Virus record (IMG/VR): IMGVR_UViG_3300029107_000017
Direction: 5' to 3' (one strand)
DNA: 4,830 nucleotides
DNA from: a virus
Lineage: Duplodnaviria > Heunggongvirae > Uroviricota > Caudoviricetes
Every line of letters begins with the position of its first letter. The stretch's first letter is position 1. Below the pieces are notes generated by a model. It saw only the letters and a list, made by a program, of their open reading frames with translations, ran no database searches and had not been told where the DNA came from. Made by a program: the position numbers and the translations under genes. Positions 1-1,444 of this stretch are shown here, in pieces.

Positions 1-298
1 TATGGTCAACCTGACAACCCGGTGTCCTCAACGGGGAAGGAATAACCCCGCCATACTTACCGCCGCGCCATTTCGCGGAGTGCCACAACCGGAAGCGCAC
101 GGTCGAAGAAAATTTAACGACAGACTATCTATGAACCAGCAACCTCGCCGTGCGCTTTCGCGTTATGCTCTGACTTTTTATGGAAATACCCTTTCAGTAA
201 ACTGTCAGTGCCGGATGCTCACCCGTGTCCGGCGCACGTACTCCACCTTACCCGTGGAGAACTCCTTAATTACCAACCTTAGCTTCGTTGGTTAGCTA
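1..298 (-). other. Hairpin-rich non-coding region downstream of the ydfC-like gene; no supported ORF
   Basis: Seen in sequence: inverted repeats at 32-50 (CGGGG/CCCCG), 63-78 (CCGCG/CGCGG), 208-237 (GTGCCGGA/TCCGGC-G-CAC), 241-259 (CTCCAC/GTGGAG), 272-292 (ACCAAC/GTTGGT). No ATG-initiated ORF with an RBS on the - strand. In Qin-type prophages a long untranslated spacer precedes the dicF sRNA, but I could not find a DicF-like sequence in the window. Confidence 0.4.
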
Positions 299-517
299 TT
301 AACGCGGGTATGTAATTATTCTGGCAATGCTTAATGCCGCTGCTTTTTCCAGCCTGGTGATATCCTGCTCCAGAGCGGACAGATTTTCAGCCTGCTTAGC
401 CCTGGCTTCATTGGCCCATTTCAGATCCTGCGCTGCATTAATTTTCTGGCGCATCCACTCATAAAGTTCATCATCGGTATAGTCTGGCGCGATGATGATG
501 GGTTCTCGTTTCTGCAT
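299..517 (-). CDS. ydfC: Small prophage protein, YdfC-like (72 aa), unknown function
   Basis: ORF track 299..517 (-). ATG at 517 preceded by GAGGA with a 6-nt spacer. Third gene downstream of the DicA-like repressor; size (72 aa) and position match ydfC of the Qin dicB operon as I recall it. Confidence 0.7.
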   Translation of the reverse strand: MQKREPIIIAPDYTDDELYEWMRQKINAAQDLKWANEARAKQAENLSALEQDITRLEKAAALSIARIITYPR

Positions 518-546
518 ACTGATTCCTCGCGGTGATGTTTCGCTTA

Positions 547-675
547 TCAGCCGTTATATTTTGCCGAACTGGAAAGCGCCTGTTTAAACTCACTGAAGCT
601 GAGAGCTTCTTCGCCTTCGGCAAGGCCTTCGAAGTATTCTTCGTAAGCCTTTTCCATGATTGCGTCGAAATCCAT
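547..675 (-). CDS. ydfB: Small prophage protein, YdfB-like (42 aa), unknown function
   Basis: Not in the ORF track (below its length cutoff). My translation of the - strand: ATG at 675, MDFDAIMEKAYEEYFEGLAEGEEALSFSEFKQALSSSAKYNG, TGA at 547-549. The ATG sits 1 nt after the ydfA-like stop (TGAtATG); AGGTGAG lies upstream. Size and position match ydfB as recalled. Confidence 0.6.
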   Translation of the reverse strand: MDFDAIMEKAYEEYFEGLAEGEEALSFSEFKQALSSSAKYNG

Positions 676-904: not shown

Positions 905-965
905 GTAGAATTTAGAATAACCTAAGAATGATGGTCAAGCTTTTTGTGTAGAAAAACCTAAGTTT
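905..965 (-). promoter_or_regulatory. Putative leftward promoter for the ydfA-like operon, flanked by two operator-like palindromes
   Basis: Read on the - strand: TTGACC (rc of 933-938), 18-nt spacer, TAAATT (rc of 909-914). Palindromes TTTAG-aataac-CTAAG (911-926) and TGTAG-aaaaac-CTAAG (947-962) bracket the -35. No transcript data. Confidence 0.4.
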
Positions 966-1036: not shown

Positions 1037-1444
1037 TTATTTATTTGCGCTTCTTTTGCGAGCTTTGAGTAGTTCTTCAAAAAGTTTGTTGAAATTCTCA
1101 ACTCGAGCACGCATCTCTGACAACAGAGCCTTTTGCTCTGACTCAGGCAGTGCGTCGAACAGTTGAAGCAACTCTTTTTGATCTTCTGTCAGATTGACTG
1201 GCTGATTATCTGGGATCGGTTCGCCTGGTTGCTTATCTTCATCTCCAAAAAGAAGCCAGGTCGGCGAGCACTGAAGCGCCTGGCTCAGTGCGAATAATCT
1301 CTTCCCCGCTGGCTGTGTTTCATCTCTTTCCCATTGAGAAATTGTTACGTGAGCCACTTTGACCAGCTTACCTAATGCGGCCTGAGACAGTTTTAATTTT
1401 TTACGCCTGTATAAGAGGCGAGCACCGAAGGTTTCGTTTTTCAT
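1037..1444 (-). CDS. dicA: DicA-like prophage repressor (XRE-family HTH, 135 aa, no peptidase domain)
   Basis: ORF track 1037..1444 (-). Same length as E. coli DicA (135 aa) and shares long motifs with it as I recall the sequence: SQWER, LFALS..LQCSPTW.LFGDEDKQP, LPESEQ, EMRARV.NFNKLFEELLKAR. Divergent from a Cro-like gene. Confidence 0.85.
   Translation of the reverse strand: MKNETFGARLLYRRKKLKLSQAALGKLVKVAHVTISQWERDETQPAGKRLFALSQALQCSPTWLLFGDEDKQPGEPIPDNQPVNLTEDQKELLQLFDALPESEQKALLSEMRARVENFNKLFEELLKARKRSANK

What the first reader, a model, noticed from the sequence alone, without database searches (positions are those of the whole stretch)
1..298. Hairpin-rich untranslated stretch after ydfC, with orphan SD-like motifs
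At least five stable inverted repeats fall in under 300 bp with no supported ORF. On the - strand TAAGGAG (rc of 264-270) and AAGGTGGAG are not followed by a credible ORF; the best is a 10-codon GTG frame. In Qin the equivalent spacer is processed by RNases to release the DicF sRNA, so a DicF-like element may lie just beyond the left edge.
Basis: partly seen in the sequence, partly recalled or inferred. Interest (0 to 1): 0.4.

Follow-up and report, generated by a model that had tools for sequence, protein, structure and literature searches.

The report
Leader of the DicF small RNA
This stretch is the well-known untranslated spacer between ydfC and the DicF small RNA in a Qin-like E. coli prophage, so it is mostly ordinary, but its left third is part of a conserved, knotted RNA domain, shared with phage P1, whose role has not been tested.

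Summary
Window 1-298 is 94% identical to the ydfC-dicF spacer of E. coli K-12 Qin and occurs in about 4,350 of 5,426 complete E. coli genomes.

In all 36 distinct relatives that match the whole stretch, DicF starts 43-44 nt beyond the left edge. The window itself has no Rfam hit.

On the - strand (the dicB operon sense) there are seven local hairpins and no promoter or terminator motif. The 97-codon + strand ORF, the 36-codon - strand ORF and the 10-codon GTG frame are not conserved as coding.

The long stem at 88-167 matches the published RNase III site. That cleavage makes the 5' end of the 190-nt pre-DicF, which maps to about window 90-95.

Window 89-1 is the 5' two-thirds of a roughly 115-nt structured domain supported by covariation: a closing helix, two hairpins and two crossing helices. 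The domain is absent from Rfam. It precedes DicF and at least eight other "seed + terminator" cassettes in lambdoid phages, and it lies behind the C1-controlled Pban promoter of P1/P7. Its function is inferred only; I favour a processing or stability guide.

Verdict: already known locus. The modest novelty lies in that domain.

The parts
299..517 (-). ydfC (72 aa). This is context: the gene whose stop codon opens the spacer.
   Evidence: ORF list. Annotated as YdfC in matching genomes.
272..296 (-). H1 hairpin directly after the ydfC stop.
   Evidence: Fold -7.4 kcal/mol, z -1.9. Present only in loci that keep ydfC; a mosaic breakpoint lies at window 278.
238..268 (-). H2 hairpin (CUCCAC/GUGGAG) together with the two orphan SD-like motifs: TAAGGAG at 262-268 and AAGGUGGAG at 241-249.
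   Evidence: the repeat finder I3. Fold -10.9, z -2.9. No start codon at a usable distance from TAAGGAG. The 5' arm and/or the motifs are missing in several mosaic variants.
205..237 (-). H3 hairpin (GCCGGA/UCCGGC) with a variable loop. The 10-codon GTG frame coincides with it.
   Evidence: The stem is nearly invariant and the loop variable across 42 distinct sequences. z is only -1.0. The SD-like motif upstream is absent in several variants.
170..208 (-). H4 hairpin. It is weak and variable. In some relatives it is replaced by a CCCUGA-AAAG-UCAGGG hairpin that is degenerate here.
   Evidence: Fold -9.5, z -1.9. Not kept in the RNAalifold consensus.
88..167 (-). H5, a long imperfect stem with arms at about 143-163 and 88-108 and a hypervariable apical loop. 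It is the RNase III substrate. The predicted 5' end of the 190-nt pre-DicF lies at about window 90-95.
   Evidence: the repeat finder I1. Fold -29.4, z -3.0. Stem conserved and loop hypervariable. Counting 190 nt back from the DicF 3' end in K-12 gives 1649245-1649250, which is window 95-90. RNase III dependence of that end is published, and the published sequence panel starts in this loop.
1..89 (-). The 5' two-thirds of a conserved structured domain ('module A', about 115 nt). Inside the window:
- P0 5' strand: 82-89.
- SL1: 63-78.
- helix a 5' strand: 51-61.
- SL2: 30-52.
- helix b 5' strand: 12-22.
- helix a 3' strand: 1-5.

The partners of helix b and P0, the RNase E linker and DicF all lie beyond the left edge.
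   Evidence: Covariance model R1 hits window 1-82 (-) at 90.1 bits, truncated at its 3' end. Covariation is documented.
909..938 (-). Promoter-like site TTGACC-18-TAAATT between the dicA-like repressor gene and ydfA, at the position of dicBp. This is context: the likely start of the transcript that carries the spacer.
   Evidence: Consensus scan only. The position matches the K-12 layout.

Best explanation
Window 1-298 is the untranslated ydfC-dicF spacer of a Qin-type dicBF operon. It is transcribed on the - strand as part of the polycistronic RNA from the DicA-repressed promoter upstream of ydfA.

Shown by homology and published experiments on the 94%-identical K-12 copy:
- RNase III cuts the long H5 stem (window 88-167) and creates the 5' end of a 190-nt intermediate at about window 90-95.
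- RNase E then cuts a single-stranded A/U-rich linker beyond the left edge and releases the 53-nt DicF. Its terminator hairpin forms its 3' end.

Shown here by comparison of sequences:
- The body of that 190-nt intermediate (window 89-1 plus about 38 nt) is a conserved, closed, multi-helix RNA domain.
- The domain has two crossing helices, so it is either a pseudoknot or a bistable fold.

Inferred:
- This domain is a biogenesis or stability cassette. It holds the upstream RNA in a nuclease-resistant fold, so that the linker just 3' of it is the accessible RNase E site. That would define the sRNA 5' end.
- The heavy structure of the whole spacer limits Rho loading and RNase E attack in a 567-nt untranslated gap.
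- After the RNase III cut, H1-H4 are left as a structured 3' end on the ydfABC mRNA.

The SD-like motifs are by-products of hairpin H2 and its flank, not translation starts.
For: Identity:
- ydfA/B/C and a DicA-like repressor are in the window. The gene order matches annotated genomes and K-12.
- The stretch is 94.3% identical to K-12 and up to 98.7% identical to other E. coli. It matches 4,356 of 5,426 complete genomes.

DicF:
- DicF lies 43-44 nt beyond the edge in L001, in L046 and in 36 of 36 distinct full-length relatives.

Processing:
- The 190-nt species is RNase III-dependent and the 53-nt species RNase E-dependent. No internal promoter was found (PMC10448788; PMC5069750).
- The arithmetic places the 190-nt 5' end in the 3' arm of H5.

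Not coding:
- The + strand ORF frame is broken in most relatives. Its protein identity (89.6%) is below its DNA identity (94.3%), and substitutions per codon position are 16/22/19. It has no Pfam or PHROG hit.
- The - strand 36-aa ORF is broken by a common 1-nt indel and by stops in P1/P7.

Structured domain:
- Helix a pair 28-87 is UA 28 / UG 5 / CG 7. Helix b pair 74-98 is UA 30 / CG 10. Overall, 89% of cells pair, against 35-49% when partners are slid.
- SL2 keeps a hairpin with at least 7 different stem sequences.
- P0 is kept through U.G->U-A, G.U->G-C and C-G->U-A changes.
- RNAalifold independently recovers helix a.
- The U.G intermediates fit only the - strand.
Against: - The window's own left flank cannot be read, and no identical genome is in the collection.
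- Cleavage sites were mapped in K-12, not in this copy, and the exact nucleotide is not readable from the held text.
- H3, H5 and SL1 show conservation but no change on both sides of a pair. H3 and SL1 are not thermodynamically unusual.
- H1, H2 and H4 are absent or altered in mosaic relatives, so they may be dispensable.
- The P0 shuffle control is not significant.
- Nothing here tests what the conserved domain does. The 'processing guide' role is inference.
- In P1/P7 the domain sits at the 5' end of a primary transcript with no RNase III stem. A pure 'RNase III/E relay' role cannot be the whole story.
Confidence: 0.9

Rival explanations
1. The conserved domain (window 89-1 plus about 38 nt) is a cis-acting read-through or antitermination RNA, working like HK022 put. 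The nascent fold would modify RNA polymerase so that part of it passes the sRNA terminator and reaches dicB/ydfD (or kil/exo, or the tRNAs and ban in P1).
For: - In every variant the domain lies 12-60 nt upstream of a strong intrinsic terminator that sits inside an operon with genes downstream.
- Qin-type and P1 operons have no N gene at this position.
- It is a compact multi-helix fold with conserved unpaired bases.
- K-12 makes both a terminated 1,146-nt transcript and a read-through 1,608-nt transcript.
Against: - It has no sequence or covariance-model similarity to HK022 putL/putR.
- Each phage has only one copy and no pR-side counterpart.
- The distance to the terminator is variable.
- It also occurs deep in the pL operon of Stx2c phages (match about 7 kb into the records). 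From general knowledge, not checked here, lambdoid Stx phages usually carry N-type antitermination.
- No experiment bears on it.
Confidence: 0.12
2. The 190-nt RNA is itself a regulator. The domain would be a protein-binding or base-pairing scaffold, and the pyrimidine-rich SL2 loop (UUCCUU / CUCCUU / CCUCC) would act as an anti-SD-like second seed or as a sponge.
For: - The 190-nt species accumulates stably in stationary phase.
- The SL2 loop stays pyrimidine-rich while its stem changes.
- The domain is conserved even where the downstream seed is swapped.
Against: - The loop sequence is not conserved in detail.
- No target is known.
- The stability of the 190-nt RNA is equally expected for a passive structured precursor.
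Confidence: 0.1
3. The stretch encodes a protein or peptide: the 97-aa + strand ORF (2-295), the 36-aa - strand ORF over the domain, or the 10-codon GTG frame behind AAGGUGGAG.
For: - The ORFs exist.
- Several phage records annotate 'hypothetical protein' here.
- phrog_8854 matches the 36-aa ORF.
- The GTG frame has an SD-like motif 3-6 nt upstream.
Against: - Frameshifts split the + strand ORF in most relatives. It shows no third-position bias and has no Pfam or PHROG hit.
- The 36-aa frame is broken by a frequent 1-nt indel and by stops in P1/P7.
- The GTG frame lies inside hairpin H3, and its SD is missing in several variants.
- The curated K-12 annotation has no gene here.
Confidence: 0.04
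4. The hairpins are chance products of a G+C-rich spacer and have no function.
For: H3 and SL1 fold no better than shuffles. The 89-nt piece inside the window has z +0.66.
Against: - The whole-stretch z is -2.8.
- Stems are conserved next to hypervariable loops.
- There are compensatory changes in four helices.
- RNase III dependence is shown experimentally in K-12.
Confidence: 0.03

Closest known systems
ydfC-dicF spacer / 190-nt pre-DicF of the E. coli K-12 Qin dicBF operon (Faubladier et al. 1990; Ragunathan et al. 2023, PMC10448788)
   Same: Same gene order, 94.3% identity over all 298 nt, and the same long stem where the RNase III-dependent 5' end maps. DicF sits at the same distance in all close relatives.
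   Different: It is a different prophage copy, with 17 substitutions and a different replication module to the right. Its own DicF is not visible in the window. The papers read here do not describe a fold for the 190-nt body.
'dicF-like region' of phages P1/P7, downstream of the C1-controlled Pban (Op72) promoters (annotation of NC_005856)
   Same: It shares SL1, helix a, SL2 and helix b at 77-82% identity, with compensatory changes, and is followed by an intrinsic terminator.
   Different: It lies at the 5' end of a primary transcript, with no ydfC, no RNase III stem and no clear P0 helix. The downstream cassette is not DicF by Rfam. tRNA genes and ban lie downstream.
HK022 putL/putR polymerase-utilization RNAs (PMC9378689)
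   Same: It is a cis-encoded, multi-helix RNA of about 70-115 nt in an early phage operon upstream of terminators. In HK022, read-through needs no phage antitermination protein.
   Different: No sequence or model similarity. There is one copy rather than two. The helices cross. No functional data exist.
3'UTR- or operon-derived sRNAs whose flanking stem-loops set the RNase E cut (for example MicL; Updegrove et al., listed in PMC9438474)
   Same: A structured element next to a single-stranded A/U-rich RNase E site, with a terminator hairpin as the sRNA 3' end.
   Different: Here the upstream element is a large, conserved, portable domain shared by many different seeds and by two phage groups. 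It is not a simple stem-loop.

Membership tests
Qin-type dicBF operon spacer (pre-DicF leader) | Lies directly downstream of ydfC in a ydfA-ydfB-ydfC operon next to a DicA-type repressor | tested here: met
   ORFs at 677-886, 547-684, 299-517 and 1037-1444, all on the - strand. The annotation of matching genomes agrees.
Qin-type dicBF operon spacer (pre-DicF leader) | Nucleotide homology to the K-12 ydfC-dicF spacer over its length | tested here: met
   94.3% identity over 298/298 nt to K-12 strains at 1649042-1649339.
Qin-type dicBF operon spacer (pre-DicF leader) | DicF (RF00039) follows about 340 nt after the ydfC stop | not testable with these tools
   The window ends 43 nt short of it. 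The feature is met in L001, in L046 and in 36 of 36 distinct full-length relatives.
Qin-type dicBF operon spacer (pre-DicF leader) | Long double-stranded stem at the RNase III-dependent 5' end of the 190-nt species | tested here: met
   The stem at 88-163 folds to -29.4 kcal/mol, z -3.0. The 190-nt arithmetic lands at window 90-95. Cleavage itself was not tested.
DicF RNA (Rfam RF00039) | Match to the covariance model inside the window | tested here: not met
   There is no Rfam match at E<=1 anywhere in the window.
HK022 put RNA | Sequence or structure similarity to putL/putR | tested here: not met
   blastn of the element against the HK022 genome gives only chance hits. Model R1 finds nothing in HK022 at E<=1.
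HK022 put RNA | Two copies per phage, one behind pL and one behind pR | tested here: not met
   There is one R1 hit per locus across 100 sources, and none on the pR side of the window.
HK022 put RNA | Suppresses termination by binding the RNA polymerase beta' zinc-binding domain | not testable with these tools
   This needs transcription assays.
Protein-coding gene | Reading frame kept in relatives, codon-position bias, family match | tested here: not met
   The only match, phrog_8854, covers a frame that common indels break.
Intrinsic terminator / sigma-70 promoter | Consensus motif within 1-298 | tested here: not met
   No site within 1-298 on either strand.

The most novel reading that the evidence does not exclude
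Window 89-1 plus about 38 nt beyond the edge is an uncatalogued structured RNA domain. It has a closing helix, two hairpins and two crossing helices that both covary, so it is either a pseudoknot or a two-state switch.

The domain acts as a portable 5' cassette for a family of phage small RNAs with interchangeable seeds: DicF and at least eight others, in lambdoid prophages and in P1/P7. Its role would be active: setting the RNase E cut, gating maturation, or controlling read-through of the sRNA terminator into dicB, kil, or the tRNA and ban genes.
Probability: 0.45. Interest if true: 0.6.

Novelty: already known. Interest (0 to 1): 0.33.

Why it matters
For the scan, this is a correct call on a known locus. 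The hairpin-rich gap is the precursor leader of DicF, one of the first bacterial small RNAs described. The prediction that DicF lies just off the window is borne out in every close relative.

The added value lies in the body of the 190-nt intermediate. The experimental papers read here report its ends but not a fold. Here it turns out to be a conserved fold, supported by covariation and not in Rfam.

The same fold precedes many different seed-plus-terminator cassettes, and it also sits behind the P1 Pban promoter. If it controls maturation or terminator read-through, it would explain how toxic products (DicF, DicB) are dosed from one transcript. It would also give a defined RNA element to test in both lambdoid and P1-type phages.

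Tried and rejected
- Rfam on the window gave nothing at E<=1, so DicF is not inside the window.
- HK022 put homology: blastn and covariance model R1 were both negative.
- The + strand 97-aa ORF, the - strand 36-aa ORF and the 10-codon GTG frame were all rejected as coding.
- No promoter or terminator motif occurs in 1-298.
- A genome-contig scan with a 16-mer (GCGGCGGYAAGTATGR) returned almost only chance matches, with E. albertii the only evident true hit among the rows shown.
- MAFFT (A1) and model-based (A2) alignments both mis-register SL2 variants with 6-bp stems, and A1 also mis-registers SL1 of P1/P7. The SL1 and SL2 rows therefore understate pairing. SL2 was instead judged by folding each variant.
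- I first read UCGUCA/UGACAG as a compensatory change in helix b. The pair counts show it is a C.A mismatch plus a U.G pair.
- The P0 shuffle control was not significant.
- Literature searches for 'dicF-like', 'DicF pseudoknot' and 'DicF / phage P1' found nothing on a structure or role of the leader.
- Faubladier and Bouche 1994 and the P1 genome paper are not held.
- No identical source genome is in the E. coli collection.

Full report
**What the window is.** The window is the immunity and early-left region of a lambdoid prophage.
- On the - strand it carries a 135-aa DicA-like repressor gene (1037-1444), ydfA, ydfB and ydfC (299-517).
- On the + strand it carries cro/dicC-like, ydaT-like and replication genes.
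- Megablast finds window 1-600 in 4,339 of 5,426 complete E. coli genomes, annotated ydfC/ydfB.
- In the best-matching genomes the order is repressor, ydfA, ydfB, ydfC, a 567-nt gap, then dicB, a DUF1482 gene, an exonuclease gene and int.
- K-12 Qin has the same order, with dicF annotated 340 nt after the ydfC stop.
- Window 1-298 aligns end to end with K-12 1649042-1649339 at 94.3% identity, and with other E. coli at up to 98.7%.
- No identical genome is in the collection; the best over the whole window is 97.3%.

**Is DicF just off the edge?** Yes, as far as relatives can show.
- Rfam finds nothing in the window itself.
- In locus L001 (window position 1 = L001 5001), Rfam finds DicF at 4906-4957 on the - strand with 76.7 bits. 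With the 53-nt K-12 annotation, DicF starts at the 43rd base beyond the left edge.
- The closest relative of the stretch, L046 (98.7%), also has DicF at 76.7 bits.
- Among 110 distinct sequences collected around the element, all 36 that match the full 298 nt carry the DicF seed at the expected distance. Other 3' cassettes occur only where just part of the spacer is shared.

**The observation.** On the - strand the 298 nt fold to -109.8 kcal/mol, z -2.8, with 1 of 200 shuffles as good. Local folding gives seven hairpins:

| Hairpin | Window coordinates | z-score |
|---|---|---|
| H1 | 272-296 | -1.9 |
| H2 | 238-262 | -2.9 |
| H3 | 210-233 | -1.0 |
| H4 | 170-208 | -1.9 |
| H5 | 88-163 | -3.0 |
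| SL1 | 63-78 | -0.65 |
| SL2 | 30-52 | -2.05 |

- No promoter or terminator motif falls in 1-298.
- The SD-like motifs exist. AAGGUGGAG is the 3' arm of H2.
- The 10-codon GTG frame (237->205) coincides with hairpin H3. In several mosaic relatives the SD-like motif upstream is gone while the hairpin stays.

**Coding potential.**
- A mechanical 97-aa ORF spans 2-295 on the + strand (111 aa in L001).
- Its frame is split by frameshifts in most relatives; only 26 of 105 keep one in-frame match.
- Its protein identity to K-12 (89.6%) is lower than its DNA identity. The 60 variable columns are spread 16/22/19 over codon positions. It has no Pfam or PHROG hit.
- A 36-aa - strand ORF over the left part matches phrog_8854, a family of unknown function. 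A common 1-nt indel (CCCCG versus CCCCCG) and stops in P1/P7 break that frame. That PHROG is probably a family of miscalled ORFs.
- The curated K-12 record has no gene here.

**Processing.**
- Ragunathan et al. 2023 (PMC10448788) show that DicF comes from the dicBp polycistronic RNA.
- A 190-nt species needs RNase III for its 5' end and accumulates when RNase E is inactivated. The 53-nt DicF needs RNase E. No internal promoter was found.
- Counting 190 nt back from the DicF 3' end in K-12 gives 1649245-1649250, which is window 95-90. That lies in the 3' arm of H5, the 13-nt inverted repeat 90-102/148-160.
- The sequence panel of their Fig. S1 starts in the H5 loop, which is consistent. The marked nucleotide is not readable in the held text.
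- Across 42 distinct sequences, the H5 stem is almost invariant and tolerates only wobble or single mismatches. Its apical loop is hypervariable in sequence and length.
- The spacer is mosaic, with recombination breakpoints at window 278, 256, 238, 167, 89 and 78. These lie at the boundaries of the hairpins.

**The left third is part of a larger conserved domain.**
- Window 1-89 is the most widely shared block. It recurs in the pL operon of phage cdtI and relatives, in Stx2c phages, in a Salmonella phage, and at 77-82% identity in P1/P7 and about 500 P1-like plasmids.
- In the P1 record it is annotated 'dicF-like region', just downstream of the C1-controlled Pban promoters and upstream of an intrinsic terminator, two tRNA genes and the rest of the operon.
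- A covariance model built from 40 variants (R1) finds exactly one copy per locus in 100 sources. It finds the window copy at 1-82 (-), truncated at its 3' end (90.1 bits), and nothing in HK022.

**Structure of the domain.** In RNA order the elements are:
- the P0 5' strand, GUUGUGGC (window 82-89);
- SL1;
- the helix a 5' strand, GG(U/C)AAGUAUGG (51-61);
- SL2;
- the helix b 5' strand, CCGGGUUGUCA (12-22);
- the helix a 3' strand, CCAUAC (5-1 plus one base beyond the edge);
- then, beyond the edge, the helix b 3' strand UGACAACCCCG and the P0 3' strand GCUGCAAC.

The evidence for these helices:
- Pair 28-87 of helix a is U-A in 28 sequences, U.G in 5 and C-G in 7. The C-G form occurs both in P1 and in a DicF-type locus.
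- Pair 74-98 of helix b is U-A in 30 sequences and C-G in 10.
- Overall, 89% of cells pair, against 35-49% when partners are slid. No shuffle reaches the observed covariation score.
- SL2 forms a hairpin at the same place with at least seven different stem sequences: CGGGG/CCCCG, CGGGGG/CCCCCG, GGGGU/ACCCC, CUGGGG/CUCCAG, CAGGGG/CUCCUG, CAGGUG/CACCUG and CUGGG/CCCAG.
- P0 is kept through U.G->U-A, G.U->G-C and C-G->U-A changes, but its shuffle control is not significant.
- RNAalifold on its own recovers helix a and extends it to 9 bp.
- Helices a and b cross, so the domain is either a pseudoknot or a two-state fold. I cannot tell which.
- The U.G intermediates fit only the - strand, which agrees with the operon sense.
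- MAFFT and the model both mis-register some SL1 and SL2 variants, so the SL1 and SL2 rows understate pairing.

**What follows the domain.**
- After P0 comes a single-stranded stretch. In DicF loci this is GCCCUCUGUUAUCAAU, followed by the RNase E-made 5' end UUUCUGG.
- Then comes a variable seed, and then a GGCGG...CCGCC terminator hairpin.
- At least nine cassette types follow the same domain.
- Rfam's DicF model accepts three of eleven tested types. It does not accept the cdtI, P1, L007, L026, L037, L058, L090, L257 or L370 types.
- The domain therefore travels with 'seed + terminator' cassettes, not with DicF as such.

**How it most likely works.**
- Shown, by homology plus published experiments: the stretch is the untranslated leader of DicF. 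RNase III cuts H5, and RNase E then cuts the linker.
- Inferred:
  - The conserved domain is a biogenesis or stability cassette. It leaves the linker as the accessible RNase E site and protects the intermediate.
  - Heavy structure across the 567-nt untranslated gap limits Rho and RNase E access.
  - H1-H4 remain as a structured 3' end on ydfABC after the RNase III cut. This would fit the loss of ydfA transcripts in the rnc mutant.
- Rivals: a put-like read-through element, a regulator in its own right, coding, or chance. These are listed with their tests.
- The P1/P7 context, a primary 5' leader without an RNase III stem, shows that the domain's role cannot depend on RNase III.

**Verdict.**
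- The finding is real and correctly interpreted, and it concerns an already known locus.
- What is possibly new is the fold of the 190-nt body and its portability. I found no description of either in Rfam or in the held literature.
- The two most relevant older papers could not be read.

Noticed in passing
L001 4699-4908 (-), the dicF-dicB spacer; L004 (P7) 1055-1170 (-): Sub-threshold matches to Rfam STnc100 (RF02076): 34.8 and 43 bits against a gathering score of 47. The conserved core is GGUGAAU...CACCUGGAGGCACCAGGCAC. The stretch after DicF may hold a second structured RNA that is also shared with P7.
   Followed up: no
L007, L058, L090, L114, L370 and others, 20-60 nt after the conserved domain: Alternative seeds such as CCCAUGUUGAUUACCUUUU read as the antisense of an SD-plus-AUG start region (AAAAGGUAAUCAACAUGGG). 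This suggests a family of phage antisense RNAs aimed at different translation starts. The targets were not searched.
   Followed up: no
window 162-167 and 84-89 (-): CAUAAC can pair with GUUGUG. That would lengthen the RNase III stem by 6 bp at the expense of the closing helix P0 of the conserved domain, giving a possible before/after-cleavage switch. Both strands are invariant, so there is no covariation to judge it.
   Followed up: partly
window 909-965 and 1470-1515: A promoter-like site TTGACC-18-TAAATT (938->909, - strand) lies at the position of dicBp. Repeated CCTAAG/CTTAGG motifs flank both ends of the repressor gene and look like DicA-type operators.
   Followed up: no
L090 1171-1359; L058 4732-4920; L005 4862-5050: isrK and C4 antisense RNA (Rfam, above gathering score) occur in these loci. 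In L090 and L058 they lie about 300-500 nt downstream of the DicF-like cassette. In cdtI (L005) they lie about 2.3 kb away, on the other side of the cI/cro immunity region. The regulatory RNA modules of P1 immI type and dicF type are therefore combined in some lambdoid phages.
   Followed up: no
L114 about 9741-9962 (and L025, L090, L108, L121): In these relatives ydfC, H1 and H2 are replaced by a small gene on the opposite strand, whose start (GGAGGATAAAATG) abuts H3. A same-sense 212-aa ORF lies further upstream, so the operon transcript would run antisense through it.
   Followed up: partly
PHROGs phrog_8854 versus L001 4990-5100 (-): A PHROG family of unknown function matches the 36-aa ORF that overlies the structured RNA domain. 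Indels and stops in relatives suggest the family consists of miscalled ORFs over a non-coding RNA.
   Followed up: partly
PP818812.1 (L370), 'Actinobacillus phage vB_Apl-pPE4': This record carries DicA, YdaT, Kil, an exonuclease VIII gene and the conserved domain, the last at 85.6% identity to E. coli. That is an unexpectedly Escherichia-like early region for a phage of a Pasteurellaceae host.
   Followed up: no
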